A stretch of DNA of 64,000 bases, from positions 9,350-73,349 of IMG/VR virus record IMGVR_UViG_3300028534_000024; one strand, 5' to 3'. This document shows positions 24,957 to 62,630 of the stretch, in pieces; within the stretch, counting starts at the first letter, position 1, and every line of letters starts with the position of its first letter. The translations under genes and the position numbers were made by a program. The notes under the pieces were generated by a model. It searched no databases and had not been told where the DNA came from. It worked only from the letters and a program-made list of their open reading frames with translations. The stretch comes from a virus (Duplodnaviria; Caudoviricetes).

Positions 24957-25275
24957 CTATATAAATAAACCTATATAGTTATCTTATAAAGTAAGGACTA
25001 TCGTCCTATATATTGGGAACCTTTCGGTTCAGACTGATATTATACCATAAAAGTTATGTTTTGTCAAGTCTTTTTTGAAATTTATATAATATTTTTCAGG
25101 AAACTTTTGTAACAAAAGAAAATTGAAATTAATTTATATTATTATATAAAGTTTCCTAACAAGATATACCATTTAAAGCAACAGAATGGTACTTTAAAAG
25201 GCTTTTCTTTTAGTTTAGGTATCATAGGCTACCTAAGATGTAAAACCTTTCATATTTGCTTTTAAATTATTTATC
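24957..25275 (-). repeat. Repeat family A, copy 1 (promoter -35 at 25062-67, -10 at 25039-44, two hairpins)
   Basis: 294 bp shared with 35155-35448; homology to copy 3 extends to 25275. Confidence 0.97.
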
Positions 25276-26301
25276 AATTCTTATTCCGTGATACACAGGA
25301 AACCTAGGAATACCCCCATCAGTAAATTCGAAGAACCTTACTTCAGCTAACTGTCCAATATACTCATTTTTGTTTTTAAGTATTTCTTTTCTCTCATCTA
25401 TTGATACTTTCATATTACATTTAAAAGTTGTATCATTGATTTTACATATAACTGTACCTTGCGTAGTATCTGCTTCATTAGGAATAACATCAACTATTTC
25501 GTAAGTCTCATCTATAAAGTCTTTATATTTAAGAAGCGATTTGGATCTTTTATTGAACTCATAATGTGTATTATCAGTTCTGACTATCGTCCCTTCATAT
25601 CCTTGTGATAGGAATTGTTTATGCCAACCTTTAAGTTCATCTAATGAGTTAACTTTATATGTAGGTACTATTTCTATATTATTTTTATATATACATAAAT
25701 TATAAAGCTCATCATATCTTTCGGAGAATGTTCCTTTAATAGAAGGCATATCATACACATAGTATTTAATCTTTTCTGTTTCATTTTCTTGATATTTTTT
25801 AACTCTTGAGATTATTTCTTGGAATGTCATTCCGTGACAGTATAATTCACCATCAAGTATATCTTCATCAGTTAAGAAAGACAAATCGATATGTTCCACT
25901 GTTGTAACTTCTCTATTCTTTCTTGAAAGTTTGTTTTTATTTGTCCCTACCATTCTTACACCATCTAGTTTAGGTTGTACATAACAATGAAACTCAATAG
26001 TCTTCTCATTAAACTTATTTGCTAGCATAGGCATAAGTGATGTATGCGATTTAGCTTCTTCAAGTGTTTCAAAGTACCCTTCTTTTAATTTCTTAGTAAT
26101 AAGAGCTTCCATTTGAAGTATTGATTGTTCATCAGCAGTTGTTTCATTAGCTCGACCTATATTCTTAGCTTTACACTCTCTGATATTAGTTACTAATTTA
26201 CCATCAAGTAAACCTGATTCTTGATAAAGAAGATGTCCTTTAGTGAACACTCTCAATATCCTTATTTTGTTCTTACTATCTTTTTTATATAATGTTTTCA
26301 T
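25267..26301 (-). CDS. ATP-dependent DNA ligase
   Basis: 'PMLA', 'QPKLDGVR', 'LDGELY', 'YDMP', 'EGTIVR', 'LLKYK', 'PRFP'. Confidence 0.93.
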   Translation of the reverse strand: MKTLYKKDSKNKIRILRVFTKGHLLYQESGLLDGKLVTNIRECKAKNIGRANETTADEQSILQMEALITKKLKEGYFETLEEAKSHTSLMPMLANKFNEKTIEFHCYVQPKLDGVRMVGTNKNKLSRKNREVTTVEHIDLSFLTDEDILDGELYCHGMTFQEIISRVKKYQENETEKIKYYVYDMPSIKGTFSERYDELYNLCIYKNNIEIVPTYKVNSLDELKGWHKQFLSQGYEGTIVRTDNTHYEFNKRSKSLLKYKDFIDETYEIVDVIPNEADTTQGTVICKINDTTFKCNMKVSIDERKEILKNKNEYIGQLAEVRFFEFTDGGIPRFPVYHGIRIDK

Positions 26302-26578
26302 GTATGTTCCTACTATCTATGGTATTAAATAATTTGTATATATCTGCCACTTCATTTATTACATCGTCACAAGATTGTTTAGTCAAATCTATAGTTAGTT
26401 CATATAGATTAAATGTAGATTTTCTATGGGTAAGTCTTGTGACAGGTAATATTTTTTTTTTTTTATATTTATCTAGCAAGTAAAATATTAATATATATTT
26501 ATCAGTCTTACATCTAATACATTCTTGGTAGTATCTACCAAGAATATCTTTCATATTTTTATTATAAATTGTTTTCAT
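26285..26578 (-). CDS. Hypothetical protein
   Basis: ORF with AAAGGA RBS in operon. Confidence 0.5.
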   Translation of the reverse strand: MKTIYNKNMKDILGRYYQECIRCKTDKYILIFYLLDKYKKKKILPVTRLTHRKSTFNLYELTIDLTKQSCDDVINEVADIYKLFNTIDSRNIHENII

Positions 26579-26592
26579 ATATGTGTCCTTTG

Positions 26593-27000
26593 TTATTTAA
26601 AACTTGTCCAGTCTTCGTCTGTAATTGTGCCATCTGTAATCCCTAATTTATAATTTCCTGAAATCTTTTCTTTTTGTGCTACTTGAATAGCCCCTGTTTT
26701 TGTGTATTGATTAACCCATAAGCAAGGATTAAATGTTTCTTCCGCTATTGGTTCTTCTCCAATAGATCTTAAAACATTATTAACATTATATTCAGCGTAT
26801 TGTTTAAGTATTGTACTATTTAGTCCTAGTAATTGAGGATTATCCTCGAACTGATAATCTATCCATTCATAATCAGCATCTAAGGCATCTTTATATAATT
26901 TAATATACTTATCTTTTTGCTCTTCAAAAGCAAATGCCCATTCTGGATCTTTCTTTAATCTATTTATAAGATTAACAGTCATAGCGTAATGCATTATCTC
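26593..27000 (-). CDS. nrdB: Ribonucleotide reductase class Ia beta subunit, exon 2
   Basis: Splicing joins ...IQLD to EIMHYAM, restoring the DExxH iron ligand motif. Confidence 0.9.
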   Translation of the reverse strand, partial: EIMHYAMTVNLINRLKKDPEWAFAFEEQKDKYIKLYKDALDADYEWIDYQFEDNPQLLGLNSTILKQYAEYNVNNVLRSIGEEPIAEETFNPCLWVNQYTKTGAIQVAQKEKISGNYKLGITDGTITDEDWTSFK

Positions 27001-28058
27001 CTTTATATTCAGATGAGGTCGTTAATCCCATCCCGCTTATTAGTAAGCTGCTGGTACTTTCATACCAGAATAGATCATATCATGAACCTTAGTTTTAGTG
27101 AAGGTCCCCTACCTTTTCCATCTCACTCGAGATGTACTCTACTTGCTTCTCATAATACCTATTTGTATTGTTCTGCGTTCGATGATCGTTACACATGTTT
27201 GTATTAAGTTTGTTAAATATAATTCTATCATTTTTTGTTAATCTATTATTTCTAAGCTTAGAAATAATAGAAGGGTCTAAATCAAATTTTCTTGCTATAT
27301 CTGCGTTAGTATTATCTGCAAAGAAAGCATCTATAAGTAATGCCTCCCTGTCGTACATAAAATTATTTTTTGTACTTACATTAGCTACCTGATTCGGAAA
27401 TTTTGTATCCCACACACTTTTCCATCTCTTTTTGTGTCGAATCAATGATACATATCTTGGATGTAAATTAAAAAGTATCGCTACTTCCTCGTTCGTTCTA
27501 CCATCTATAAGAAGCTTAATTACTTGCTCTGCGTCATTATTTGTCAATTTAGCATTGTAGCAATCCTCGCCTTTAGGTACTTTGACTAACCCAGTAGTAA
27601 TAGCGTGTATTTGGTTCTCAGATCTAGTTACCCATTCTAAGTTACTAATATTATTATTAGTTTTGTCACCATCTATATGATTAATATGTGGTTTATTGTA
27701 TGGATTAGGTATAAAAGCTTCTGCTACTAATCTATGGACCAACTTTGTATGTCCTTTCTTATTATTATCCCTTAAACCAACCATCACATATCCAGTATTA
27801 CTTATAGTAGTTGATAACTCTTTTGGTACTAGCCTATTATAGTAATTATATGATATTACTCTACCATCCGTAGTTATTTTATATTTATCGAAACCTAGTA
27901 TTGTTTTGCTTTTCATATTCTCTCCTTTATATCAGATAGAATATTATATTACTTAATACAAATTTAGCACGGTATTGCCATATGCTTTCGCACTTAGGGT
28001 TCCACCGTTTAGATAGGTTTTATATCTATATGTTACCATATAGTTGGACTCAAAGTTA
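27001..28058 (-). ncRNA. Group I intron (IA2-like) in nrdB
   Basis: 5' exon ends in U; P1 UUGGAU/GUCCAA; P2 CUAUAUG-GUAA-CAUAUAG; P3 CCUAUCU/AGGUAGG; P4 ACGGU/ACCGU; P7 GAUCA/UGAUC; P9 CUGGUAU-GAAA-GUACCAG; terminal G. Confidence 0.92.
27095..27916 (-). CDS. Intron-encoded HNH homing endonuclease (NUMOD4-like + HNH)
   Basis: 'YKITTDGRV', 'LVHRLVAEAFIPNP...INHIDGDKTNNNISNLEWVT'. Confidence 0.93.
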   Translation of the reverse strand: MKSKTILGFDKYKITTDGRVISYNYYNRLVPKELSTTISNTGYVMVGLRDNNKKGHTKLVHRLVAEAFIPNPYNKPHINHIDGDKTNNNISNLEWVTRSENQIHAITTGLVKVPKGEDCYNAKLTNNDAEQVIKLLIDGRTNEEVAILFNLHPRYVSLIRHKKRWKSVWDTKFPNQVANVSTKNNFMYDREALLIDAFFADNTNADIARKFDLDPSIISKLRNNRLTKNDRIIFNKLNTNMCNDHRTQNNTNRYYEKQVEYISSEMEKVGDLH

Positions 28059-28763
28059 ATCCAATTGAATCTTCTGTATCGCATCTGTTGCATTTATCAT
28101 AATACCATTTTCTTTATATGCAAATGATGTAACAAATGATGTCTTAAACAATACTGCCTCTAGTATGTTCAATGCGAACAATGACATTACTATTGATTTC
28201 TTATGTTCATTTTCATTATATTTCTCTGGTTCAATATGTCTAAGATTATATCTTGCATTATGTATAATAGTATCTTCAAATGTATCAATAATATCTTTAG
28301 CTCTTTTTAGAATATTGTCATTAATAATTATATCATCAAATATCTCAACAATATCAGTTGGCATAGCTTTAAGTATTTCTGCATAAGTTGGACTATGAAT
28401 TGATGTTTCGAAGAATTGGTGGGTACTCCACCACAGCTCAAGTTGAGGATTTGTAGTTACTGGAGAGAATACCTCAGCGACTGCTCTTCCAGCTATTGAG
28501 TCAAGAAGTGTTTGGAATTTAAAGTTTTTAAGATATAAGTTCCTAAGTTCGGGAGTCATCTTCATAAAATCTTTTGCATCTTTCTTGTAAGGAAAATCCC
28601 CTTTGAACCACATCAGTCCTTGTGCATTGTCTGTTAGTTTTTGAATTCCTTGTTCGATATTTAAATCGTTCCTTGCTACATTCCTACCAGAGCCTAAGAA
28701 TAAAGGCTCATTTGTGAAATCTATGTTGTTTGGGTTAAATAAATTATGTACTTCTGTTGTCAT
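28059..28763 (-). CDS. nrdB: Ribonucleotide reductase class Ia beta subunit, exon 1
   Basis: 'EPLFLG...NVAR', 'FQTLLDSI', 'FETSIHSPTY', 'LNILEAVLF..SF'. Confidence 0.92.
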
Positions 28764-28791
28764 GTGTATCCTTTTATATTTTATTAGTTAA

Positions 28792-31023: not shown

Positions 31024-31039
31024 TCGTATCCTTTCTTTG

Positions 31040-31915: not shown

Positions 31916-31935
31916 TTATCCTCCTATTGATATAT

Positions 31936-33826: not shown

Positions 33827-33836
33827 TTATTTCCTT

Positions 33837-34172: not shown

Positions 34173-34197
34173 CTCTATCCTTTTTGTATTAAGAAAG

Positions 34198-35154: not shown

Positions 35155-35448
35155 CTATATAAATAAACCTATATAGTTATCTTATAAAGTAAGGACTATC
35201 GTCCTATATATTGGGAACCTTTCGGTTCAGACTGATATTATACCATAAAAGTTATGTTTTGTCAAGTCTTTTTTGAAATTTATATAATATTTTTCAGGAA
35301 ACTTTTGTAGCAAAAGAAAATTGAAATTAATTTATATTACTATATAAAGTTTCCTGACAAGATACACCATTTAAAGCAACAGAATGGTACTTTAAAAGGC
35401 TTTTCTTTTAGTTTAGGTATCGTAGGTTATCTAAGATGTAAAACCTTT
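35155..35448 (-). repeat. Repeat family A, copy 2 (-35 at 35260-65, -10 at 35237-42)
   Basis: 294 bp with 7 substitutions versus copy 1 by manual alignment. Confidence 0.97.
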
Positions 35449-35457
35449 TAAATCATC

Positions 35458-35676
35458 TTATACTTCAATATAATATACTTCATCTTTTATTAACTTTTTA
35501 AAATCTTCATATTCATCATAGGTATCATCCATTTGCTCTAACAGATATCCTAAGTTATATCGAGCTGTACCATCTAAGTCATTTACCATTATAGGCGATG
35601 TATTCCGTAGTAAATCTAGTGCTTTCCTAGATAATACTTGATTAATTACTGCTAGTTTTACTATTATGTATTTCAT
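35458..35676 (-). CDS. Hypothetical protein
   Basis: Start coupled to polymerase stop (TAATG). Confidence 0.55.
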   Translation of the reverse strand: MKYIIVKLAVINQVLSRKALDLLRNTSPIMVNDLDGTARYNLGYLLEQMDDTYDEYEDFKKLIKDEVYYIEV

Positions 35677-36582
35677 TATTTATCCTTTTTAAAGTCTTCT
35701 TCTAATTTATTTAAGAAATCTTTTATTTCACCCAAACTTGCATTATTTGCTAAAGTTTCTTGTTGTTTCCATGAAAAACCAAAATCAAGTTCAGCTTTAT
35801 TATGTACTAATTGATCTTCTTTATAGTCTTTTATCATTTCTGATATAACTATTTCGTTAGCTTTTTGTACTATTATAGGATCGTTCTTAACTTGAAGATA
35901 TACAGCATCGTGTATAGTTAAGAATATATACATATTATCCTCTAAGTTTTCATCTTCAATTCTTTTTTGAATCCTATTAATAGCTTTCATCATAAGTTGT
36001 CCTGATAATCCTTGAATTAATGCATTACAATAAGATCTTTCAGCTTTTTCTACTGATATCTGTTCCTCACCTAGTAATTCATGACATCTTATTATTAATC
36101 CATGAGGTGTTCTTCCTACTCCTTTATTATCTCTAGCTTCTTTCAGATACTTGTCATAGTATTTTTGTACACCACTATAAAGTTTGTGGTAATTATCTAC
36201 AATAATCTTAGCCTCATCTAAAGAAATATTTAAAGAATTTGCTACAGAATGTTCAGTTGCTCCGTAAGCAAGTCCAAAAGTTACGGCTTTAGACAACTGT
36301 CTTAAATCTGGAGCTTCTTCTTTAATTATAAAGGATTCCTCAACTGTTATAGTATTACCGTAAGGTAATCCTCTTTCCTTTAATTCATCAGCAAAGTAGC
36401 TGGCTGTATTAAAAGAATGCGAGTCATGTCCTTCAAGGATTACTTTACATTTTGCATCATCTCTTGTTTCTTCCGCACCTACTCTATCCTCCAAAGCATT
36501 AAAATCAGCTCCCGCAAATAGGTAATTATCTTCAGCAATACAAACGTTTTTAATAAGTTTAGCATAGGTTGAACCTGAAGGC
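35676..36582 (-). CDS. Family A DNA polymerase, exon 2
   Basis: Frame reads PSGSTYAKLIK...GADFNALEDRV (motif A), 'RQLSKAVTFGLAYG' (motif B), 'TIHDAV' (motif C). Confidence 0.92.
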
Positions 36583-37453
36583 CAGGGTGTTATACAAGCG
36601 TGTAGTGATATAACAACCTATACTATATTATAAGGTCTATCTATTACTTTATATTTATCTAAAAGATAATTAACATGTAATGCTGCCTCTTTTTCGGTAT
36701 TAAACCGTTTCTGTCCTATAGTTTTATTATTGAGTCTTAGTGATCCTATCCATTTCTGTCTACTCTTATCATAGCTAACATTATGATAGTTTGAGGATTT
36801 ACCAATCTTTAATCCCAAAGTAGGTAAATTATACTCCTTAAGTCCTGTTGTTAAGGCATGTATTTTATTTTCACTGGATGTACACCATTCTAAATTATCT
36901 AGTCTATTATTTAATTTATTCCCATCTTTATGATTGACTTCTAATTGTTCACTATTATCTACTGGATTAAATGTTAACATAACTAATCTATGAACTAAAT
37001 AATTTTTATTCCTAATTGAGACATCTAAATAACCACTATTTAATAAATGTGGTCGTAGGTACGGTACTTGTATCCCTTTAATTCTACCATAAGTTGATAT
37101 TAAATATCTAGTATCAATAGGGCATTCTTTCCATTGTTCAATAATATCCTCCTTTAATTTTTATTTAATTGCTTGTATCACTCACAGTCTCCTATGAGAT
37201 CGGACTATATCTTCACCCTTAAATAAGGGGATCACCACTTCGACGTCACTACTCGTCTACTCCTAAAAGGATAGTCTCTGAACCTTTACCTTATCTCGCA
37301 CTTAGGTACTTGGCTGCTGATTGTCTCTATTATATGTATTTTTAGGGGCCGTTAAGTCATTTCTGCTTAATATCCTAACATATACCTAACAAGATGTTCC
37401 AGCAATTCGATGATTTTACTATATCATATTGCTATGATATGACCCACCATTCT
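36583..37453 (-). ncRNA. Group I intron (IA2-like) in DNA polymerase gene
   Basis: P AAUUGCUGGAA, Q AAUCAGCAG, R GUUCAGAGACUA, S AAGAUAUAGUCC; P1 ACCU/GGGU; junction CT|G restores NLQNL-PSGS; terminal G. Confidence 0.93.
36618..37142 (-). CDS. Intron-encoded HNH homing endonuclease (NUMOD4-like + HNH + AP2-like), probable ATT start
   Basis: Frame open to ATT at 37142, 5 nt after AAGGAGG; 'EQWKE...YLISTYGRI', 'VHRLV', 'VNHKDGNKLNNRLDNLEWCT', 'SSNYHNVSY...WIG'. Confidence 0.85.
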   Translation of the reverse strand: MEQWKECPIDTRYLISTYGRIKGIQVPYLRPHLLNSGYLDVSIRNKNYLVHRLVMLTFNPVDNSEQLEVNHKDGNKLNNRLDNLEWCTSSENKIHALTTGLKEYNLPTLGLKIGKSSNYHNVSYDKSRQKWIGSLRLNNKTIGQKRFNTEKEAALHVNYLLDKYKVIDRPYNIV

Positions 37454-39114
37454 AGGTTTTGTAAGTTTGGATTTGAACTACTAAGTCTTCCAGACACTGT
37501 ACCATGAAGTTTAAAGTCTCCATGTACTCTATATATGCCTTTATCATCTTGAACAGAAAGTTCATCAAATGCTTTTAAGAATGTACCTGCTACTTTAGAC
37601 GCATCAGTTATATCTTGAAGTAGTTTTAATATTCTTAATTTATGTTCGTCTTGTTCCTGTTCCCTATATTGTTTCATGACATCTTTACCTACTGATGGAT
37701 TACCAGTTTTCTTAGATGTTTCAAGAACAGGATAACCTAAAGTATCAATAAGAAGCATCACTTTATGGTTCGTAGAGTTAGGATTAAATTCTACATCAAA
37801 ATCATCCACTGTTTTCTGTTTAACATGTGATGAGTTATATTTAAACATAGCATTATATTTTAAATCAGTTACTACTTCTTTAATCTCATCAAAACTTCTT
37901 AACTCTTCAAGTGACTTTTCTATCAGACTATTAAGTTCCTCTTGTGCTTCTGTAAGTTTCTCTTTATCAATTATAAGTCCTTGATACTTCATCTTAATAA
38001 GAGTCTTAAGGGATGGTTTATAATAATTAGTAAAGATATCTAATTGATCTTCCTCTATTATCTTCTTAGAATACTTATTATACGCTTCAAATGTACCTGT
38101 AACATCATACACATTATATGTACCAACATCTTTAAATGAATACTCTAATAACCTATCCTGTTTGATATTATTATCATATTCTCCATATATATCAAATAGT
38201 TCATCTTTAAGGCCTAAACTGACTCTTTGTAGCCCATTAACACAAAGGTATTTTAGGTGCATTACATCAGTGATATTCCAATTATTAACAATATCATTAA
38301 GTCTTTTTCGTTCATAAACAGAAACATCCATCAAATCCCTTAATATGAATGGAACATCAAATATAGCGTTATACCCTAATTGCTCGCCTTTATACATAAG
38401 ATAGAAATTATATAATTCTTCTCTGATCTCCTCATATTCTGATGAATATTCTGGACAAGTAGCAAAAGCATATCCTTTAGTTGTACTTGTAGCTAACGCA
38501 ACTGTGATAATCCTATCTCTTCCTAAAACTAAACCTGTTGTTTCGATATCCATAGCTAGTTTAGGTTCTTTAATAAGCCTATCAAGTACATCTCTTGTTT
38601 CTTCTAGATTATCTATAAGTTTTACATCAATCTTATCAAGGATATTGACTGTATCTTTATAAGTACCATTAAGTACACTATCTAAACATTCTACTGATTT
38701 ATTTAGCTCAGTTAATTTCTGAGGTTGTGAGAATAACATAAAGAAGTTAAGAACAGGTACTATCTTATATCCATCTAGTTCATTTATACCATCTAAAGCT
38801 TTTCCTAAAGATGCCATAAAGTGTTTTGATCCTGTTGCAAACTTAAAGAAATCTGGGTTGGTGGTTGCAATAGTAAGCACGCCATTATTCTCAGCTATCT
38901 CTTTCAATTCTTTAACATTTTCAGTATAGTGTACTTTTTTATGTTTTCCTGTTTTCGTGTCCAAGCTTAAAGCATAATATAAAACTGATTGTTTATTACT
39001 ATCAGAAAGTTTAGCCTGATAATTAATCATAAGTTTGGTAATATTTGAATGATTCATCAAATTAGGATTACCAACAATTATAACTTTTGGATTGTTTGAT
39101 TTATTAATTAACAT
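37454..39114 (-). CDS. Family A DNA polymerase, exon 1 (N-terminal extra domain + 3'-5' exonuclease)
   Basis: 'AMDIETTGL', 'YNAIFD', 'YNVYDVTGT', 'GTVSGRLSSSNPNLQNL'. Confidence 0.93.
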
Positions 39115-52625: not shown

Positions 52626-52829
52626 TCATAAAATCTCCTTATCTTTTGGTGTTAATCTTTCAGTTATGATCGAAGGACATATATAACCACCCATCACGAT
52701 AGCTTCAATGAGTTGTTTGATCTCTTTAGATGATAATGATGATAGATTTAATAACTTTTTACCTCTCTTAGGCGATAATGTTAGACTATCTCTTGTGAGT
52801 TCTGATAATTTATATTTTCTAAACTCCAT
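52626..52829 (-). CDS. Hypothetical protein
   Basis: GAAAGGA RBS behind a consensus promoter. Confidence 0.55.
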   Translation of the reverse strand: MEFRKYKLSELTRDSLTLSPKRGKKLLNLSSLSSKEIKQLIEAIVMGGYICPSIITERLTPKDKEIL

Positions 52830-52857: not shown

Positions 52858-52887
52858 ATTATATCATAGTAGATATAAATTTGTCAA
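52858..52887 (-). promoter_or_regulatory. Sigma70-type promoter TTGACA-N18-TATAAT (extended -10)
   Basis: Minus strand TTGACA aatttatatctactatga TATAAT. Confidence 0.85.
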
Positions 52888-52895: not shown

Positions 52896-53220
52896 GATAA
52901 ATAATTTAAAAGAAAATATGAAAGGTTTTACCCCTAAGGCAACCTATGATACCTAAATGAAAAGAAAAGCCTTTTAAGATACCATTATGTTGCTTTAAAT
53001 GGTATATCTTGTCAGAAAACTTTATATAATAATATAAATTAATTTCAATTTTCTTTTGTTACAAAAGTTTCCTGAAAATACTATATAAATTTCAAGAAAT
53101 TTACATTTTACTCTTGACAAATCTTTAATAGTGTGGTATAATATCAGTCTGAACCGAAAGGTTCCCAATATATAGACCGTAGGTCTTAGCTTATAAGATA
53201 ACTATATAGCTATTTTATAG
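52896..53220 (+). repeat. Repeat family A, copy 3, inverted (-35 at 53114-19, -10 at 53137-42)
   Basis: Reverse complement aligns to copies 1/2 and is identical to copy 4 over 117 bp. Confidence 0.97.
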
Positions 53221-53221
53221 A

Positions 53222-53623
53222 CTATATTTTACCCCATGTTTTATTATACCCATACTTATGTATGATTCTATATACAGATGCTACAGATATATCATAGTCT
53301 TTTGCAAGTTGCCTTGATGATATACCATTTAATATAAATTCCTCAATTATACTTTTATGAAGTACTTTAGGTATTCTTTTACGGATACATTTAAGTTTGT
53401 TATTGTATATTTTAAATTGCTTATGTACATCATATTTATTTACCTCTTCTTGTGTAGCATAGTAGAATTTGTAAAGTCCATCCACCCAAACAATAGGAGC
53501 AACATTATTACATACGCTTATATATTCGTTATCATTACTTACTACTAATATCCCATATCCATTATCGTAGGCTTTTTGTGCTTCCTCTATTGTTAATTCT
53601 TTTCTATTTTTAAAGTTTTTCAT
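53222..53623 (-). CDS. HTH-containing protein
   Basis: C-terminal 'ISSRQLAKDYDISVASVYRII'. Confidence 0.65.
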   Translation of the reverse strand: MKNFKNRKELTIEEAQKAYDNGYGILVVSNDNEYISVCNNVAPIVWVDGLYKFYYATQEEVNKYDVHKQFKIYNNKLKCIRKRIPKVLHKSIIEEFILNGISSRQLAKDYDISVASVYRIIHKYGYNKTWGKI

Positions 53624-54578: not shown

Positions 54579-54587
54579 TTATTTTCC

Positions 54588-56093: not shown

Positions 56094-56097
56094 GTTG

Positions 56098-56307: not shown

Positions 56308-56412
56308 TGCTTCCGTTTCTAGATCTTTATATTTACCTTTAGTTGTTCTATATGTTTTCTTTGCTGTGTTAAATGCTATTTCTATTCTACCTTTTTAGAA
56401 TTGTACTTGCTT

Positions 56413-56640
56413 TTATTTTTTGTGCTTATTTATATACTCATTATGATTATACTGTCCATAAATTGTGTTGTCATTACTTTCTGTACAATTTAATGATGTT
56501 TCGTTTTTTATTATAGAATTTAAAGTTCTTTCCCCTTGTTCATATTCTTTATATTTTTTTGTTTTTACAGACACTCCTGTACCAGCAATAGTTTGTAGTA
56601 CTGCTACTTTATTCCAAAAATCATCTATACAATTACTCAT
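56413..56640 (-). CDS. Hypothetical protein
   Basis: AAAGGA RBS. Confidence 0.45.
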   Translation of the reverse strand: MSNCIDDFWNKVAVLQTIAGTGVSVKTKKYKEYEQGERTLNSIIKNETSLNCTESNDNTIYGQYNHNEYINKHKK

Positions 56641-56810
56641 AGTTTGTCCTTTTTAATTATTAAGCATGTGATTAAATATCACAAAACCAAAAATACTTGC
56701 ACCTATACAAAGACCTACAGCTCCTTGTTCGGCTGCTTTCTGTGTTGTACTTAATGCCATTGGTATTATTGCATTTAATCCTACAATTATTGTTATTATC
56801 TCGTTTTTAT

Positions 56811-57014
56811 TCATTTATCTACCTTATCTACCTCTAATGTCAATGATTTTGTTAAATAACCTATATCATACATATCTTCATCAGGTTTGAAATTATTTAT
56901 GATTTCTTTAGCTAATTGTAAAGCTAATTCATTATCATAAGCTTCTATTAAATCTTTAAATCTACCATCTTTTACACCTGTTACACTAAAATTTACACTT
57001 GCTTTAATTATCAT
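56811..57014 (-). CDS. Hypothetical protein
   Basis: Start coupled to upstream stop. Confidence 0.5.
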   Translation of the reverse strand: MIIKASVNFSVTGVKDGRFKDLIEAYDNELALQLAKEIINNFKPDEDMYDIGYLTKSLTLEVDKVDK

Positions 57015-58147
57015 TATTTCTCCTTATGTTTAGTAAAAAATTCCTTAAAAGTTTGTCCTCCATATTGATTTTCTGTTATTTTAATAATTTCTTTTATAGA
57101 ATACTCTTCTTTTTTATCAATACGCTCTACGAAATTACGAGTACCTTGCGAACAAGCACCTGTGATGCTTCGATACATTACTATCATTTTATCAAGAGGT
57201 AAAGTAGTATCAAGAGTATAATTTTCATAGCCGGACATATCTCTATCTAGTAATTTGTAAGCCAAATCCTCTTTGGCTTCTTTAATAGTAGCTCCATGGG
57301 CAAATTGCCCATCTTGTTCTATGAGATAGGATGGACTATCGTACTCTTTTGTGTCAACATTAAAGTTCCTTACTTTTCTTACATTGCCTTTTTTAGTGAT
57401 AACCTTAGATAATATACTATCAGCTATAATATGTTCTTCCCCATCTTTATACCATTTACCATCTATAAGTTCCAAATATCCAGGTATCTTATACGGACAC
57501 CACTGAATGGTTTGATTATTTAAAACTATACATTCAAAAATATCGTGTCTTATAGCTACGATATTTTTACCACCAGCTTTTATTGTAGAGGACCAACCAG
57601 CTTTTATGGTAGAGTAACTACCAGTATCTATTGTAGAGGACCAACCAGCTTTTATGGTAGAGTACCGACCAGCTTTTATTGTAGATGAATCACCAGTATC
57701 TATTGTAGATGAACCACCAGTATCTATTGTAGATGAATCATCAGCTTTTATGATAGAGTAACTACCAGTATCTATTGTAGAGGACCAACCAGCTTTTATG
57801 GTAGAGTACCAACCAGCTTTTATTGTAGATGAACCACCAGTATCTATCGTAGATGAACCACCAGTATCTATTGTAGATGAATCACCAGCTTTTATGGTAG
57901 AGTAACTACCAGTATCTATTGTAGAGGACCAACCAGCTTTTATGGTAGAGTACCAACCAGCTTTTATTGTAGATGAACCACCAGTATCTATCGTAGATGA
58001 ACCACCAGCTTTTATAGTAGATGAATCACCAGCTTTTATAGTAGATGAATCACCAGCTTTTATGATAGAGGACCGACCAGCTTTTATTGTAGATGAACCT
58101 TTTTCTAAAATAATTTCGATACTGTTCTCATTCTTTGTTATTTTCAT
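57014..58147 (-). CDS. Octapeptide-repeat (beta-solenoid-like) protein
   Basis: 22 x GxxSTI(KA/DT) units; C-terminal 'YRSITGACSQGT..F' motif. Confidence 0.8.
   Translation of the reverse strand: MKITKNENSIEIILEKGSSTIKAGRSSIIKAGDSSTIKAGDSSTIKAGGSSTIDTGGSSTIKAGWYSTIKAGWSSTIDTGSYSTIKAGDSSTIDTGGSSTIDTGGSSTIKAGWYSTIKAGWSSTIDTGSYSIIKADDSSTIDTGGSSTIDTGDSSTIKAGRYSTIKAGWSSTIDTGSYSTIKAGWSSTIKAGGKNIVAIRHDIFECIVLNNQTIQWCPYKIPGYLELIDGKWYKDGEEHIIADSILSKVITKKGNVRKVRNFNVDTKEYDSPSYLIEQDGQFAHGATIKEAKEDLAYKLLDRDMSGYENYTLDTTLPLDKMIVMYRSITGACSQGTRNFVERIDKKEEYSIKEIIKITENQYGGQTFKEFFTKHKEK
57575..58102 (-). repeat. 24-bp tandem repeat array (22 units) with a 144-bp higher-order period
   Basis: Read directly from sequence and translation. 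Confidence 0.93.
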
Positions 58148-58439
58148 AATTTATCCTTTTTATATATTTAAATATACAATGCTATTTTTAAGTAACTCTT
58201 CAATAGTGTTATATATTTTATAATGCTTGATGTTTATTGTAGATGTTTTAAGCTTGTTGCCATTTCTGTATTGAATTTGTATAAAAGGATTTACATCATC
58301 TATTTTACATTTATGTGCTTGTATATATTTATAAAATACATCATCTGTTCATAGTACTTCAAACTCTATGATTTTATTATTTTTTATATAAAACATTACA
58401 TATCTAGTGTTATTGAATTTAATTTCATAACTTTATCCT

Positions 58440-59084
58440 TTATCTTGATATACTAGGTAGTTCTCCAATAAATGGCTCACAATTATCCCAGTAACTATTA
58501 CCACATATAATTTCTTTTATATTGTATTTATTTTCATTCATACTTAAAAATGTTGCTATATATGGATAATCACATTCGTTATTCCATATCCAAACTTTTT
58601 CTTCTGGTTCTGGTTCCCATAGTGTAATATCTTCCTTTTTATATACTCTATCTTTTGAGTATATATTATCATTTGTTATAAAAGCTATTTTATCTATTTT
58701 CCCATCTTTGGTTCGTATGAAATCATTTTCTTTGAACTTATATTCTTCTGGTTTTACTCTATATTTTTTGATATCTATTTTAATGGTAAAATTTGGAGAT
58801 AATTCAACATCTATCCACTCTTTTTTTATATCCATTCTATCTTGTATTACACCATATGAAGATATAACTTCCTTTAGGTGTTGTATAGTTTTACCTTCTG
58901 CTATAGCTTTTCTTAATTCTGCATATTCATCATTTATTACATATTTATTATGTACAAACCATTTTGGGTCATCAGTAAGAAACCATGTATTATTATTTTC
59001 TTTACACCATACTTTTGCCCCGTTTGGCTGAGTATAGAACCAGTCTATGATTTCTCTATATTTTAAATATTTTTCTCTTGTCAT
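58440..59084 (-). CDS. Hypothetical protein
   Basis: 'ELRKAIAEGKTIQ...W.D...YRVKP' and 'WEPEPEEKVW...CEPFIGELP'. Confidence 0.65.
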   Translation of the reverse strand: MTREKYLKYREIIDWFYTQPNGAKVWCKENNNTWFLTDDPKWFVHNKYVINDEYAELRKAIAEGKTIQHLKEVISSYGVIQDRMDIKKEWIDVELSPNFTIKIDIKKYRVKPEEYKFKENDFIRTKDGKIDKIAFITNDNIYSKDRVYKKEDITLWEPEPEEKVWIWNNECDYPYIATFLSMNENKYNIKEIICGNSYWDNCEPFIGELPSISR

Positions 59085-59085
59085 A

Positions 59086-59730
59086 TCATTCTCCTTTGGT
59101 TTTATTTAATCTGCTTTTTGCAATATTGTAATAGGTCTCATCTATTTCTATTCCCATAAAATTTCTACCTAACTTTAACGCAACTAATCCAGTACTTCCA
59201 CTTCCCATGCAAGTGTCTACTACTAAATCACCATCGTTGGTGTTGTCTATAATAAGCTCTTCTAGTAAAGAGTGTGGCTTTTCCGTAGGGTGAAGTTTAC
59301 TCCTACCAGTTGGGTGTACTAACCAGTTCTTTTTACATTTGCTGTTTAGTTTTCCAGTACCTTTCTTCTTAAACCACACTGCATTTTCTGTAGCACTTAA
59401 ATATACATACTCCCCATTCATAGGCGATGGGTTTGATTTGGCGTAAACAAGCTGTCTAGTTGTCCCTAGCTTCAGTTTTGACTTTTTTGCGAAGAACTTA
59501 TAAATAGTTGAATACTGTTCGTTACCACAGAAGATAACGAATATATCAGCAGAATTGTAAATGTGTTCTTAGAACACATTTATGTCAAATGTTGGTATAT
59601 CTGCTATTCCCTTGTTCAGGTTCCTTAACCCATTACTTTCCCTGTTTACTTTCCCGTAGGGTATATCGGTAAGCAATAACCTACATTTTGGGATATCCAC
59701 CTCAGTACAATCTGCATTAATTAGTTTCAT
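59086..59730 (-). pseudogene. N4/N6 DNA methyltransferase (beta class) interrupted by one in-frame TAA
   Basis: MKLINADC..TDIPYG..FDINVF*EHIYNS..HPTEKP..DTCMGSGSTG..GIE in a single frame; stop at 59569-71. Confidence 0.88.
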
Positions 59731-59990
59731 CTCGCTCCCCTTTATAATTCTCAGGTACTGAACCATCAAATGGTTCTATTTTTTTTACAGTTATGTTCCG
59801 TCTCATAAGGTAACAACACTGGTGCCACAAAATCGTTGTTTACTTACATCGTTACCCATACTAACTCCCCCTCTTTAGGTTCCCATTTTTTAGCTCAGTG
59901 GGGTTATACGCGAAACCATCACTGAGTAGGACTCGCCCATTAACTTCTTCCACCACTTGTAGTGTTTCTTTTTTTTTTTTAATTTGTTTA
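59717..59990 (-). pseudogene. Decayed ORF similar to the C-terminus of the 58440..59084 protein
   Basis: Fragments 'KWEPKEGELVWV' and 'IEPFDGSVP' in shifting frames; begins at a 12-nt A run. Confidence 0.5.
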
Positions 59991-59992
59991 AC

Positions 59993-60196
59993 TTATAAAG
60001 AAAATCCACAAATTTTCTCTGCCTTTATTTTATAGTTTAAATCCTCAGCTAAACTTATACTACCATCCACATATTGCATATGTTTTTCAGGAGCTTTTTC
60101 AATGGCTTTGTAGCATTTATCAGAAATTTGCATATATAATACCAATTCACCCGAAAACAGGTTTGATATTAACAATAAAATATACAAAGTTTTCAT
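59993..60196 (-). CDS. Hypothetical secreted-like protein
   Basis: MKTLYILLLISNLFS signal-like N-terminus. Confidence 0.5.
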   Translation of the reverse strand: MKTLYILLLISNLFSGELVLYMQISDKCYKAIEKAPEKHMQYVDGSISLAEDLNYKIKAEKICGFSL

Positions 60197-60402
60197 TATC
60201 TTGCCTTATATTTCTTATCTACTACCAAATAGGTTACTGTTGGTATAAAACTCTTAACATCCTCAGGTCTCATATGTCTAGTCTCAGAATATTTTTTATT
60301 TCCAATTTTATAAGTAATGGCATACATACCAATACCTTTTTTGCTCATTGAAATTTGTCTGATATCTATATTTGTAACCTTAATTTCGTTTTTCTTTTTC
60401 AT
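60196..60402 (-). CDS. Hypothetical basic protein
   Basis: AAGGA RBS. Confidence 0.5.
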   Translation of the reverse strand: MKKKNEIKVTNIDIRQISMSKKGIGMYAITYKIGNKKYSETRHMRPEDVKSFIPTVTYLVVDKKYKAR

Positions 60403-60536
60403 GTTCTATCCTTTTATTTTACACATTCTTACATAAATGCTTCTTCATATTAGATGATATAATCATCACAGCAGTCCTTTGGAATATACCCATCAAACCA
60501 CACAGAAAGACACCTGTGCGTTTCAAAAGATGTATC

Positions 60537-60803
60537 TTACTGAAACAATTTATTTAATTCATTAGAATCACTTGAAGCTTCAATCATGTTATACTGATTG
60601 AAGCTTACCAAATCCATAATTTCAGCTATAATCATATTATAAATACCATCAGACACCCAAGCTGATGTATTAAATACTTTCATAACACCATTATGAATTT
60701 GTAAGCTCCAATCTTTGCCCTCATAAGAGGACATATTAACATCTTTTTTAAATGGGTAATCTAAATTCGCCCAAAAACTTTGAATTTCTAATAAATTTTT
60801 CAT
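60537..60803 (-). CDS. Hypothetical protein
   Basis: AAAGGA RBS. Confidence 0.55.
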   Translation of the reverse strand: MKNLLEIQSFWANLDYPFKKDVNMSSYEGKDWSLQIHNGVMKVFNTSAWVSDGIYNMIIAEIMDLVSFNQYNMIEASSDSNELNKLFQ

Positions 60804-60855
60804 ATTTTATCCTTTTTGTTTTGTTTTATTTTATTTGTAAAATTTCTAGTAGATT

Positions 60856-61041
60856 CTAAAGTATATTATCTACAGTCTTAAGCATATCATTTATCACAAC
60901 TTTTGTATGTTTCAAATAGAAATCTGAAAATTTGAACATAAGTTCATCTCTATGCTCACTATCTGGCATATCTCTTACATATTCGAATATATCATCTATG
61001 AAATCCATTGATAATTTCATATCATTTTTTGGAATTTCCAT
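60856..61041 (-). CDS. Hypothetical protein
   Basis: AGGA RBS. Confidence 0.5.
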   Translation of the reverse strand: MEIPKNDMKLSMDFIDDIFEYVRDMPDSEHRDELMFKFSDFYLKHTKVVINDMLKTVDNIL

Positions 61042-61045
61042 AATT

Positions 61046-61165
61046 TTATCCTATAATGTAAAGTTGCTTATTTAGTCTATAAGCTAACTCAGTAGCAACC
61101 ACAAGCTGTGAAAGTGTAAGGTAGCTTTCAAATCTTTTTCCTCTGACCTTAAATTTTGTTCTCAT
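61046..61165 (-). CDS. 39-aa ORF (not in track) behind repeat family B leader
   Basis: AAAAGGA RBS; MRTKFKVRGKRFESYLTLSQLVVATELAYRLNKQLYIIG. Confidence 0.45.
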   Translation of the reverse strand: MRTKFKVRGKRFESYLTLSQLVVATELAYRLNKQLYIIG

Positions 61166-61290
61166 ATTTTATCCTTTTGTTTTATTTTTGTTACCCTTAT
61201 TGATAACATATGAATATCTTATATTTAAAACATTCATAAATTATCAATGGATTTTATAAGTATCTTTTATACTGAATTTAAGAATCCCAT
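61163..61290 (-). repeat. Repeat family B leader, copy 1 (similar to 63854..63965)
   Basis: Shared TGTTTTAAAT..AAGATATT.ATATGTTATC.A.AAGGG..AACAAAAA..AAAAGGATAAA..ATG. Confidence 0.75.
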
Positions 61291-61503
61291 AAATTCCTCA
61301 CAAGAGATTCTTAAAAATTCAGAAGTTCATTATTACACCATATAATACCTATTTTAAGATACCTAGAAGCCAAAATAACGGTGATTCTAGGATTACCTAT
61401 ACCTAACATTAGGTATGCATTTAAAAGCTTTTATTTTTGGTTTTTAAGAAATATAGCTAACTCACCCACTGTTTTGATATTCTTGTTATTTTTAAGAATA
61501 TAT

Positions 61504-61734
61504 CTAAGTTCTTTTGCTGTCATAACCAGTCCCTTCTTTATTTAAAAATTGTTCGTATGATTCATATGTCTCTTTTTCGATACCATCTTCCCAGAGGGTA
61601 ATAAAATATCTATCTCGGTATTTTTCATTCTGTAAAAAATTGATAATATCGTCTTTTGTCCCTACGCAGAGGGTTGTGGATGCGTAATCCCCAAATCCAT
61701 CGTAACCTATTGTTATTACCTGATATATTTTCAT
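61504..61734 (-). CDS. Hypothetical protein
   Basis: AAAGGA RBS. Confidence 0.5.
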   Translation of the reverse strand: MKIYQVITIGYDGFGDYASTTLCVGTKDDIINFLQNEKYRDRYFITLWEDGIEKETYESYEQFLNKEGTGYDSKRT

Positions 61735-61811
61735 GTTTTATCCTTTTATTTATTTATTTATTTTATAGTCACATATCAACTAAAGAAAGAGATTCTAACC
61801 AAGCCTTTCAG

Positions 61812-62009
61812 TTATCTTTCAAACTCATAGCCATCCCCTTCTTTATTTAAATATGGTTCATATAATTTCTCCCTATCAGCATTTAATTTGAACAATTTCT
61901 CTCTAATGTAGATAGGTGTAGATTTATCATTAAGAATCTCATCAAGTACATCACTTATAAGATTTACCTCTAAACTTAACAAATGTTCTATATTGTTTAG
62001 ATTATCCAT
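61812..62009 (-). CDS. Hypothetical protein
   Basis: AAAGGA RBS. Confidence 0.5.
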   Translation of the reverse strand: MDNLNNIEHLLSLEVNLISDVLDEILNDKSTPIYIREKLFKLNADREKLYEPYLNKEGDGYEFER

Positions 62010-62253
62010 AATTTTATCCTTTATGTTTTATTAAAATACATCTACAAATACATTTACAGAAGCCTCCAAGACTTTCAGTTATCTTGAATTATAGAAAATT
62101 CTCAAACTTACTCGATAGTGCCTTAAAATGTATATGTTACATTTCAAAACATCAAAATTATAAGGGTAACCAAAAATTAAAAAGGAGGAATCAATGCCAC
62201 GAAAGCATTATAGTTTATTTATTTAAGATATTGGAGACCTCTGTAAATGTATT

Positions 62254-62436
62254 TTAGATATTAAATATCCACTTTTCAGATGGACATAACTGTATCTTTA
62301 ATTTATACTCATAAGCATATTTAATGTTATCTCTAAATACCCTCACGATAATATAAGAACCCTTATGAGATTCTATAAATTCATTTGCTTTAACTTCTGA
62401 GTTTGTAGTAAATAGTTCCCACATATAAATCTCCAT
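62254..62436 (-). CDS. Hypothetical protein, first gene after family A copy 4 promoter
   Basis: ORF downstream of a consensus promoter; RBS weak. Confidence 0.4.
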   Translation of the reverse strand: MEIYMWELFTTNSEVKANEFIESHKGSYIIVRVFRDNIKYAYEYKLKIQLCPSEKWIFNI

Positions 62437-62476
62437 GAAATTATAAGTATAATATAATGAATATAACCATAAGAAT

Positions 62477-62630
62477 CTATATAAATAAACCTATAAAATA
62501 GCTATATAGTTATCTTATAAGCTAAGACCTACGGTCTATATATTGGGAACCTTTCGGTTCAGACTGATATTATACCACACTATTAAAGATTTGTCAAGAG
62601 TAAAATGCAAAATTCTTAAAATTTTTATAC
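62477..62630 (-). repeat. Repeat family A, copy 4, partial (-35 at 62592-97, -10 at 62569-74)
   Basis: 62491-62607 is the exact reverse complement of 53104-53220. Confidence 0.97.

What the first reader, a model, noticed from the sequence alone, without database searches (positions are those of the whole stretch)
24957..62630. Four-copy ~300-bp non-coding element: perfect promoter plus conserved downstream hairpins, in both orientations
Seen: copies at 24957-25275, 35155-35448, 52896-53220 (inverted) and 62477-62630 (partial). Each has TTGACA-N17-TGnTATAAT followed immediately by the invariant ATCAGTCTGAACCGAAAGGTTCCCAATATATAG, a second hairpin and an AT-rich tail. The -35/-10 spacer differs between copy pairs while the downstream segment is conserved, so selection acts on more than the promoter. 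No ORF, transposase or clear target duplication was seen. Inference, competing models: (a) transcription-primed replication origins (promoter plus unwinding element, as known for T4 R-loop origins), with the inverted copy priming the other strand; (b) a cis-acting antitermination leader analogous to HK022 put; (c) a multicopy small RNA; (d) module-bounding recombination repeats like those known in large Campylobacter phages. This is the strongest candidate here for an undescribed system.
Basis: partly seen in the sequence, partly recalled or inferred. Interest (0 to 1): 0.88.

Follow-up and report, generated by a model that had tools for sequence, protein, structure and literature searches.

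The report
Repeated early-promoter cassette in uncultured phage
An uncultured, AT-rich tailed phage carries at least five copies of a non-coding cassette made of a textbook-perfect bacterial promoter followed by a small folded RNA; the copies swap sequence with one another and sit at the heads of the phage's gene blocks. This resembles the promoter cassettes known from T4-type phages but is built differently.

Summary
The window is part of a 73-kb IMG/VR phage contig. It holds four copies of an "A module", and a fifth lies just outside the window. Each A module has a 12/12 sigma-70 promoter (P1) with a TG-extended -10. A leader of about 100 nt follows, with an invariant hairpin 1, an invariant 10-nt linker, a covarying hairpin 2 and an AU-rich hairpin 3 with a U tract.

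Three copies also carry a roughly 190-bp "B module" upstream of P1. It has a back-to-back promoter and may encode a folded RNA of about 170 nt.

There is no match in Rfam, the phage collection, IMG/VR or bacterial genomes. One metagenome holds a related phage (72-92% identity) with diverged copies at the same places, including the inverted one.

The copies evolve in concert. There is a 155-bp perfect direct repeat and a 117-bp perfect inverted repeat, and copy 3 is a mosaic of two others. Cassette edges coincide with breaks in synteny.

Best reading (about 0.45): a modular early-transcription cassette spread and homogenised by recombination. It is analogous to T4-type PeSL cassettes but is not a member of that family. 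The job of the leader RNA is unresolved: stabiliser or attenuator, trans-acting small RNA, antiterminator or origin primer. Earlier notes of this scan describe the same repeats on this genome only.

The parts
24957..25067 (-). Copy 1, A module. P1 -35 at 25067-25062 and -10 at 25044-25039; leader with hairpin 1 (25017-25030) and hairpin 2 (24994-25007); AU-rich tail.
25069..25275 (+). Copy 1, B module. Back-to-back promoter TTGTCA-N18-TATAAT at 25061-25090 (+). A candidate folded RNA of about 170 nt starts near 25098. The last 9 nt (25267-25275) are also the end of the DNA ligase gene.
24922..24951 (-). P2 promoter module of copy 1 (TTGACA-N18-TGaTATAAT, then a short 5' UTR, RBS and ATG of the 72-aa gene 24674-24892).
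   Evidence: repeat D10
35155..35265 (-). Copy 2, A module (hairpin 1 at 35215-35228, hairpin 2 at 35192-35205). Bases 35155-35309 are a 155-bp perfect repeat of 24957-25111.
35267..35454 (+). Copy 2, B module. It carries a compensatory A-U to G-C change in the long 5' helix relative to copy 1.
53114..53224 (+). Copy 3, A module, inverted. P1 fires rightward, convergent with the early operon. The leader ends against the stop codon of the HTH gene. Hairpin 1 at 53151-53164, hairpin 2 at 53174-53186.
52896..53112 (-). Copy 3, B module, inverted. It is copy-1-like, while the adjoining A module is copy-4-like; the crossover lies near 53073-53085. A 17-nt insertion separates the -35 and -10 of the back-to-back promoter.
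52858..52887 (-). P2 promoter module beside copy 3 (perfect TTGACA-N18-TATAAT). It serves gene 52626-52829 and lies on the B side here.
62477..62638 (-). Copy 4, A module only (P1 at 62597-62569, hairpin 1 at 62547-62560, hairpin 2 at 62525-62537). It heads the 9.3-kb block of small early ORFs. Bases 62491-62607 are a 117-bp perfect inverted repeat of 53104-53220.
53222..53623 (-). 133-aa helix-turn-helix protein gene, last gene of the early block. Its 3' end abuts the inverted leader, so P1 of copy 3 reads antisense into it.

Best explanation
The element is a modular early-transcription cassette of an uncultured, roughly 100-kb, 29% GC siphovirus-like phage.

The core A module is an A/T-rich upstream tract plus a perfect host sigma-70/sigma-A promoter (P1). 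P1 transcribes a leader of about 90-110 nt. Within a few nucleotides of the predicted start the RNA folds into an invariant 5-bp GAAA hairpin. An invariant single-stranded linker follows, then a 5-bp hairpin whose stem covaries, then an AU-rich hairpin with a U-rich tract that looks like a weak terminator or attenuator. A second, simpler promoter module (P2, with a short 5' UTR and RBS) usually follows and serves the next gene.

Three copies add a B module upstream. It contains a promoter back-to-back with P1 and probably gives a folded RNA of about 170 nt on the other strand.

The cassettes head each leftward gene block. Homologous recombination and gene conversion have copied, inverted and homogenised them, and they act as break and join points between gene modules.

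Shown here: the anatomy, copy number, covariation in hairpin 2, mosaicism, and conservation of position and orientation in a related phage.

Inferred: that P1 is an early promoter; that hairpin 1 protects the 5' end or binds a protein; that hairpin 3 attenuates; and that B is transcribed.
For: Repeats and coordinates.

Promoters: five of the nine perfect consensus promoters in the contig are P1 and three are P2, with P2 ending in near-identical RBS contexts. The back-to-back TTGTCA-N18-TATAAT scores 11/12.

Gene context: all genes from 21 to 64 kb lie on the minus strand, and P1 of copies 1, 2, 4 and 5 sits directly upstream of gene blocks. Copy 4 heads about 18 small ORFs.

Related phage: six metagenome contigs at 72-92% identity carry the cassette at the places of copies 2, 3 (same inverted orientation), 4 and 5, and at one new locus.

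RNA structure: across 11 copies, 98% of hairpin cells are paired. Two pairs of hairpin 2 changed on both sides, and no shuffle or slid register reaches the observed score. The linker CAATATATAG was not part of the search pattern and is invariant in all 11 copies.

Hairpin 3 with a U tract is present in copies 3 and 4 and in most relatives.

B module: a long 5' helix starts at the predicted start site in both lineages with unrelated sequence. A 9-bp helix is unbroken in 6 of 6 copies and varies only through G-U wobble. Copy 2 carries one compensatory change.

Concerted evolution and mosaicism: 155-bp perfect direct repeat, 117-bp perfect inverted repeat, and copy 3 built from a copy-1-like B and a copy-4-like A.

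Synteny breaks at cassette edges: L028 lacks exactly the 72-aa ORF next to B, L032 breaks at the end of the leader, and L027 has unrelated flanks.

PeSL cassettes of T4-type phages are the published precedent for promoter cassettes that mediate modular shuffling (PMC2839356, PMC4122927).
Against: No expression data could be obtained, so no transcript, start site or 3' end is shown.

Hairpin 1 never varies, and the search pattern required it. It could equally be a palindromic DNA operator or a DNA hairpin.

Hairpin 2 has only two haplotypes, possibly a single event spread by gene conversion.

A strong P1 firing antisense into the early operon at copy 3 is awkward for a pure operon-promoter reading.

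The strand of B could not be settled: each strand's predicted fold favours its own strand. The helices in B are AU-rich with several alternatives.

Hairpin 3 is weak (-3 to -12 kcal/mol). It has lost its trailing U tract in copies 1 and 2 and is partly deleted in L030.

Metagenome contigs that end or join at repeats may be assembly chimeras.

More distant relatives (ligase 50% identical or less) have no such repeats at all, so the cassette is not essential to the wider phage group.
Confidence: 0.45

Rival explanations
1. Autonomous multi-copy small-RNA genes. P1 makes a discrete RNA of about 90 nt ending at hairpin 3 and its U tract, and the back-to-back promoter makes a roughly 170-nt B RNA. 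Both act in trans at high dosage early in infection, for example as a decoy for a host protein or nuclease. Downstream genes are served by P2.
For: A P2-type promoter lies between the leader and the next gene in most copies. Hairpin 3 with a U tract is terminator-like. The cassette works as a unit in either orientation: copy 3 is inverted, and this is conserved in L031. The stem, loop and linker of hairpin 1 are invariant in sequence, which suits protein recognition. The promoter is perfect and present in five copies, giving very high output.
Against: Hairpin 3 is weak. It lacks a trailing U tract in copies 1 and 2 and is degenerate in copy 5, L029 and L030. No target complementarity or partner protein was identified. 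No RNA data are available.
Confidence: 0.2
2. Transcription-primed replication origins. The P1 transcript forms an R-loop in the very AT-rich leader DNA. The displaced non-template strand folds into stable C-G-closed G(N)NA DNA mini-hairpins. The RNA primes leading-strand synthesis. The back-to-back promoter and the inverted copy supply the opposite direction.
For: A strong promoter is followed by DNA that is 85-90% AT. The loops GAAA, GATA and GTA, closed by C-G, lie on the non-template strand. The divergent promoter pair and the presence of both orientations fit bidirectional initiation.
Against: Nothing here tests replication. The whole genome is AT-rich. GC skew follows gene direction only, with no switch at the cassettes. 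Five near-identical origins would be unusual. An iteron-like array elsewhere in the contig is an alternative origin candidate.
Confidence: 0.15
3. Cis-acting processive antitermination site (like HK022 put or lambda nut). The hairpins of the nascent leader, alone or with a phage protein, modify the RNA polymerase that made them, so that it reads through terminators across each long early or middle gene block.
For: The two small hairpins lie directly downstream of each strong promoter at the head of blocks 4-17 kb long. Hairpin 1 is a 5-bp stem with a GNRA loop, like boxB. Sequence-level invariance fits a binding site.
Against: No arginine-rich N-like protein is encoded by the first genes after the promoters. 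No boxA-like sequence was seen by eye. The hairpins are much smaller than the put stems. Copy 3 would send terminator-proof polymerase antisense into the early block. There is no Rfam match.
Confidence: 0.1
4. A selfish or neutral dispersed repeat. A promoter region was duplicated by illegitimate and homologous recombination and is kept similar only by gene conversion. The leader and B module have no function of their own.
For: Copy ends are variable, and copy 3 carries 9 nt of ligase coding sequence along with B. Long perfect stretches and mosaicism are present. Distant relatives lack the element.
Against: Position and orientation of four copies are conserved in a phage whose aligned flanking DNA is 78-85% identical. 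Hairpin 2 keeps pairing through double changes. The linker is invariant although the neighbouring spacer and start region vary. Direct 155-bp and inverted 117-bp perfect repeats carry a cost in deletions and inversions that should be selected against if the repeats were useless.
Confidence: 0.1

Closest known systems
PeSL (promoter-early stem-loop) cassettes of T4-type phages (Arbiol et al. 2010, PMC2839356; Comeau et al. 2014, PMC4122927)
   Same: Both are small, repeated, non-coding intergenic cassettes built around a sigma-70 consensus early promoter with an AT-rich tract upstream of the -35. Both are associated with small ORFs of unknown function. Both are exchanged by homologous recombination, so cassette edges are indel and replacement points between related phages.
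   Different: In PeSLs the stem-loop lies upstream of the promoter, is G/C-tract rich and acts as a terminator. Here the conserved hairpins lie downstream in the transcript. The upstream B module is AU-rich, has no terminator-like hairpin in the gene direction and is absent from two of five copies. The cassette is three to five times larger, has a back-to-back second promoter and occurs in inverted orientation. The phage is not T4-type: it has a long tape measure protein and family A polymerase.
HK022 put and lambda nut antitermination sites
   Same: Two short stem-loops are transcribed immediately after the early promoters and are present at each early transcription unit. Hairpin 1 has a 5-bp stem with a GNRA-type loop, like boxB.
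   Different: There is no sequence similarity or family match, no boxA and no N-like protein. There are five copies rather than two. One copy points against the genes. Activity is untested.
Transcription-dependent phage origins (T4 oriF/oriG; lactococcal phage c2 ori with its PE1 transcript), recalled from my own knowledge
   Same: A promoter is followed by AT-rich DNA and a non-coding, folded transcript.
   Different: Those origins are single or dissimilar loci, not a family of five near-identical repeats. No replication evidence exists here.
Lambda PR'-tR' (6S RNA) arrangement
   Same: A strong constitutive promoter is followed by a short leader that ends at a terminator upstream of a long operon.
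   Different: No Q-like gene or Q-binding element was identified. The terminator candidate is weak and variable, and a second promoter follows it.

Membership tests
T4-type PeSL cassette | Sigma-70 consensus early promoter with an AT-rich tract upstream of the -35 | tested here: met
   12/12 promoter with TG extension in all five copies, and an A/T-rich tract before the -35.
T4-type PeSL cassette | Stable stem-loop upstream of the promoter, often polyG/polyC, acting as a terminator of upstream transcription | tested here: not met
   The terminator scan finds nothing upstream of P1 in the gene direction. B helices are AU-rich and are followed by A-rich, not U-rich, sequence in that direction. 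Copies 4 and 5 have no B module.
T4-type PeSL cassette | Flanks small orphan ORFs, and cassette edges are indel or replacement points between close relatives | tested here: met
   L028 lacks exactly the 72-aa ORF next to copy 2. L032 and L027 break at cassette edges. Copy 4 heads the block of small ORFs. Caveat: these are metagenome contigs.
T4-type PeSL cassette | Host genome is a T4-type myovirus | tested here: not met
   1714-aa tape measure protein, family A polymerase, DnaB-like helicase and SbcC-like protein. The best polymerase hits among cultured phages are 31% identical or less.
T4-type PeSL cassette | Mini-circles formed by recombination between cassettes | not testable with these tools
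   Needs inverse PCR or long reads from infected cells.
HK022 put / lambda nut | Stem-loops transcribed just downstream of early promoters | tested here: met
   Hairpin 1 starts about 5-8 nt and hairpin 2 about 30 nt after the predicted start.
HK022 put / lambda nut | Similarity to a curated RNA family (the put/nut reference sequences themselves were not compared) | tested here: not met
   No Rfam match at gathering score or at E<=1. No reference put sequence was at hand for a direct alignment.
HK022 put / lambda nut | For nut: a boxA element and an arginine-rich N-like protein encoded early | tested here: not met
   The first genes after each promoter encode no arginine-rich peptide. No boxA-like motif was seen in the leader (read by eye).
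HK022 put / lambda nut | Terminator read-through by the modified polymerase | not testable with these tools
   Needs reporter assays.
Transposable element (IS or MITE) | Defined terminal inverted repeats, target-site duplication, transposase | tested here: not met
   Copy ends differ between copies. There is no ORF in the element and no flanking duplication. Only an 8-bp AT-only similarity exists at the ends.
Any Rfam family (riboswitch, ribozyme, known small RNA, intron) | Covariance-model match | tested here: not met
   Zero matches in the window at gathering score, and zero at E<=1 on three cassette loci.
R-loop origin of T4 type | Promoter plus a downstream DNA unwinding element at which nascent DNA starts | not testable with these tools
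   The promoter and AT-rich DNA are present. Unwinding and initiation cannot be computed in a genome that is 29% GC throughout.

The most novel reading that the evidence does not exclude
The cassette is a self-contained dual non-coding-RNA unit. Two back-to-back consensus promoters drive a roughly 90-nt three-hairpin RNA and a roughly 170-nt two-domain RNA. The unit has been amplified to five or more copies in a lytic phage and works in either orientation. The RNAs act as a new class of high-dosage phage effector, either as a decoy for a host defence protein or nuclease, or as a polymerase-modifying antiterminator. In addition, the 117-bp perfect inverted copies with inward-facing promoters make the 9.3-kb early block expressible in either orientation.
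Probability: 0.2. Interest if true: 0.75.

Novelty: new variant of a known kind. Interest (0 to 1): 0.5.

Why it matters
Repeated promoter cassettes are thought to be how large lytic phages shuffle small accessory genes, but so far they have been described mainly for T4-type phages. This is an unrelated, uncultured phage lineage with a differently built cassette: hairpins inside the transcript, a back-to-back second promoter, and use in both orientations. It shows the same signs of concerted evolution and module exchange, which suggests the strategy is more general.

The leader and the B module are candidate new RNA families with no match in Rfam.

The near-ideal promoter with its conserved initial transcript may also be useful as a strong, compact expression part, if the host range of the promoter is confirmed.

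Tried and rejected
**Searches for homologues**
- Rfam: no match at gathering score on the window or at E<=1 on three cassette loci.
- BLASTN (distant mode) of copy 1 against 50,697 phage records: no match.
- Exact-pattern scans of IMG/VR with four different conserved motifs: none.
- Bacterial and archaeal genome scan with the A motif: none.
- Bacterial and archaeal genome scan with a B motif: one hit inside a coding region of a Sphingobacteriales MAG, with no surrounding similarity. Rejected as chance.
- Covariance model of the leader, searched over 500 kb of the window, relatives and two whole related contigs: only the 11 training copies.

**Distant relatives**
- Five relatives found through the ligase have almost no consensus promoters. 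The two fetched whole (G001, G005) have no dispersed repeats. The cassette is therefore lineage-specific.

**Expression data**

**Other checks**
- Strand of the B RNA by G-U versus A-C counting: inconclusive, because each strand's predicted fold favours itself.
- The hairpin TTAGGTA/TACCTAA and the ACCATT/AATGGT hairpin seen in copy 1 are not kept in the relatives. They are dropped as conserved structure.
- N-like arginine-rich protein: not found.
- Transposon features: not found.
- N4-type hairpin promoters were considered because of the small hairpins and the N4-like best polymerase hits. They were set aside because the largest ORF found in the stretches scanned (window and L004) is the 1714-aa tape measure protein; contig bases 1-6831 were not scanned, and polymerase identity is only 27-31%.
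- The short match of the L032 left end to the region downstream of copy 4 (68 nt, 79%) is too weak to claim a recombinant between copies 2 and 4.

Full report
**What the window is.** The window is bases 9350-73349 of a 73,349-bp IMG/VR virus contig, about 29% GC. Its genes include a major head protein, a 1714-aa tape measure protein, family A DNA polymerase, a DnaB-like helicase, an SbcC-like protein, ribonucleotide reductase and ATP-dependent ligase. The nearest cultured phages share at most 31% identity in the polymerase. Genes at 1-20.7 kb lie on the plus strand (structural). Everything from 21.4 to 64 kb lies on the minus strand.

**Check of the observation.** The four stated copies exist as described.
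- Copies 1 (24957-25275) and 2 (35155-35454) are 97% identical over 300 nt.
- Copy 3 (52896-53220) is inverted.
- Copy 4 (62477-62638) shares only the promoter-leader part.
- A fifth copy of that part lies just before the window, at contig 8300-8423 on the minus strand.

The promoter is TTGACA-N17-TATAAT with TG before the -10, a 12/12 match. It is on the minus strand in copies 1, 2, 4 and 5 and on the plus strand in copy 3. The whole contig has only nine perfect consensus promoters. Five are this one (P1). Three belong to a second family (P2: TTGACAaat-N18-TGaTATAATac, then about 25 nt, an RBS and ATG). One lies at contig 2000. The element contains no tRNA, no Rfam family and no conserved ORF.

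**Anatomy.** Alignment of the five copies separates two modules.

*Module A*, present in all five copies, consists of:
- an A/T-rich tract and P1;
- hairpin 1 (GAACC-GAAA-GGTTC), starting about 5-8 nt after the predicted start;
- the linker (C/A)CAATATATAG;
- hairpin 2;
- an AU-rich stretch.

*Module B*, about 190 bp upstream of P1, is present only in copies 1-3. In copies 1 and 5 a perfect P2 follows the leader. In copy 2 a weaker extended -10 version of P2 follows, and copy 4 has only a candidate -10. In copy 3 the A and B modules together are flipped between the upstream gene's stop codon and P2. As a result P2 adjoins B, and P1 points into the 3' end of the 133-aa helix-turn-helix gene at 53222-53623.

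**Relatives.** Exact-motif scans of IMG/VR found nothing. A metagenome scan found six contigs from one sample, Ga0256828. They align to the contig at 72-92% identity. They carry the cassette at the places of copy 2 (L028, L032), copy 3 (L031, same inverted orientation), copy 4 (L030) and copy 5 (L029), and at a locus with unrelated flanks (L027).

In L031 the orthologous HTH gene is 183 aa with two HTH repeats, and it again ends against the inverted leader.

More distant relatives, found through the ligase at 50% amino-acid identity or less and with contigs of 88-100 kb, have almost no consensus promoters. The two fetched whole (G001, G005) have no dispersed repeats. The cassette is therefore a recent feature of one sub-lineage.

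**Evidence for structure in the leader.** Across 11 copies, hairpin 1 is invariant, but the search pattern required it. Hairpin 2 occurs as AGGAC-GATA-GTCCT or AGACC-G(A)TA-GGTCT. That is two pairs changed on both sides, with 98% of cells paired, and no shuffle or slid register reaches the observed score. Both forms occur in both phages. Orthologous copies can differ in form, which points to exchange between copies.

The linker was not part of the search pattern and is invariant in all 11 copies, whereas the promoter spacer and the first 8-9 transcribed bases vary.

A third, AU-rich hairpin followed by GUUUAUUUAUAU is present in copies 3 and 4 and in most relatives, at -7 to -12 kcal/mol. In copies 1 and 2 an 11-nt deletion removes its trailing U tract. 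It is weak in copy 5 and L029 and partly deleted in L030. It looks like a weak terminator or attenuator, but nothing shows that it works.

**Module B.** On the strand opposite to P1 there is a back-to-back promoter that shares the -35 region:
- TTGTCA-N18-TATAAT in copies 1 and 2 (11/12);
- TTGTCA-N17/18-TATAAA in L028, L031 and L032;
- a weaker form in L027;
- disrupted by a 17-nt insertion in copy 3.

A transcript from it would begin with a long helix in both lineages, although the helix sequences are unrelated (GGAAACUUU... in this phage, AUGAACUUAUAA... in the relative). In copy 2 one A-U pair of that helix has become G-C. A 9-bp helix (AUGGUACYU with AGGUAUCAU) is unbroken in all six copies, and its four variable positions change only to G-U wobble on this strand.

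A direct comparison of the two strands is nevertheless inconclusive, because the fold predicted on each strand favours that strand. Two hairpins seen in copy 1 are not kept in the relatives. Several blocks are invariant in sequence, including the palindrome CTTTTG-N3-CAAAAG, which occurs nowhere else in the contig. These could be protein-binding sites on DNA. I therefore treat a roughly 170-nt B RNA as likely but unproven.

**Evolution of the copies.**
- Copies 1 and 2 share a 155-bp perfect stretch.
- Copies 3 and 4 share a 117-bp perfect inverted stretch.
- Copy 3 is a mosaic: its B part is copy-1-like and its A part is copy-4-like, with the crossover in a short shared motif near 53073-53085.
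- Copy 3 also carries the last 9 nt of the ligase reading frame that ends inside copy 1. This suggests, without relatives having been checked, that its B part was copied from the ligase locus.
- Copy ends are ragged, and there are no terminal inverted repeats or target duplications.

So spread was by recombination, not transposition. Copies within one genome are more alike than orthologous copies in the two phages, which is concerted evolution.

Cassette edges coincide with synteny breaks. L028 lacks exactly the 72-aa ORF 35458-35676 next to B. L032 loses homology at the end of the leader. L027 sits between unrelated genes. Metagenome contigs can be chimeric at repeats, so this carries moderate weight.

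**Interpretation.** The safest statement is that this is a modular early-transcription cassette that heads each leftward gene block and is multiplied and homogenised by recombination. The closest published parallel is the PeSL cassette of T4-type phages (PMC2839356, PMC4122927). That cassette also has a consensus early promoter with an AT-rich upstream tract, it is associated with small orphan ORFs, and recombination between cassettes causes indels and replacements.

It is not a member of that family. The defining upstream G/C-rich terminator stem-loop is absent, the conserved hairpins here are inside the transcript, and the phage is not T4-type.

What the leader does is open. Three transcripts from strong promoters here begin with a helix within a few nucleotides of the predicted start: A, B and the one at contig 2000. 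That fits 5'-end protection. The sequence-level invariance of hairpin 1 and the linker fits a protein-binding site. Hairpin 3 followed by P2 fits an attenuated or self-contained short RNA, and would also explain why an inverted copy is tolerated.

Rival readings are given with their odds in the rival-explanations section: trans-acting multi-copy small RNAs, R-loop origins, and put/nut-like antitermination.

**The inverted copy.** P1 of copy 3 and P1 of copy 4 face each other across the 9.3-kb block of about 18 small ORFs. Because the promoters lie inside the perfect inverted repeat, a flip of the block by homologous recombination would leave it transcribed from whichever P1 then lies upstream. 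No flipped isomer was seen in the six metagenome contigs.

In the present orientation, P1 of copy 3 would make RNA antisense to the HTH gene unless it stops at hairpin 3. This arrangement is conserved in the related phage, so it is probably tolerated or useful. Any regulatory role is inference only.

**Verdict.** This is a real feature beyond chance and has no match in the family or sequence libraries searched. It is a new variant of a known kind of phage regulatory cassette, with two candidate new RNA families attached. It is above ordinary because of the unusual build, the use of both orientations and the clear comparative signal.

Noticed in passing
window 24922-24951, 52858-52887; contig 8220-8249 (outside the window): A second repeated regulatory module, P2: a perfect TTGACA-N18-TATAAT promoter with TG, followed by a short 5' UTR and similar purine-rich RBS contexts (AAAGGACATATATG in two copies, AGAGGAATATAATG in the third). 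It combines with the A and B modules in different orders.
   Followed up: partly
L006 1500-1880 (contig about 2000-2375, before the window): A sixth perfect consensus promoter has an upstream tract like that of P1 but a different hairpin leader. Next to it lie arrays of a 25-bp GC-rich repeat (five units) and a 23-bp repeat (three units). These are iteron-like and could mark an origin, packaging site or injection-stop signal.
   Followed up: no
window 53222-53623 and L031 832-1383: The last gene of the early block encodes a small protein with a resolvase/transposase-type helix-turn-helix and weak, below-cutoff Mor-family hits. The related phage has the HTH duplicated in tandem (183 aa against 133 aa).
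   Followed up: partly
window 57497-58165: 19 tandem copies of a 24-nt unit lie inside the 377-aa ORF 57014-58147, giving an 8-residue protein repeat.
   Followed up: no
window 1404-1653: A 12-nt tandem repeat (about 14 register-shifted copies) lies inside ORF 1391-1804, encoding an acidic Glu/Pro-rich repeat next to the head genes.
   Followed up: no
window 36500-39114: The family A polymerase appears split: a 560-aa ORF at 37432-39114, and small ORFs across a roughly 450-nt gap. The Rfam scan of the window at gathering score found no intron family.
   Followed up: no
window 62883-62900: The hairpin GGTTACC-AAAT-AGGTAAC straddles the stop codon of the MYG1-like gene (62888-63856, minus strand) and is followed by a U-rich run. 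It looks like a conventional terminator. A 290-nt non-coding stretch follows before P1 of copy 4.
   Followed up: no
window 61149-61246 and 63840-63943: Another direct repeat of about 100 nt (82% identity) lies in the early region and is unrelated to the cassette. It covers gene starts with similar upstream sequences.
   Followed up: no
L004 1740-1830 (contig about 8570-8660): A GC-richer, hairpin-forming stretch (GGAGGGATTGACCCTCC) lies between copy 5 and the first plus-strand structural gene.
   Followed up: no
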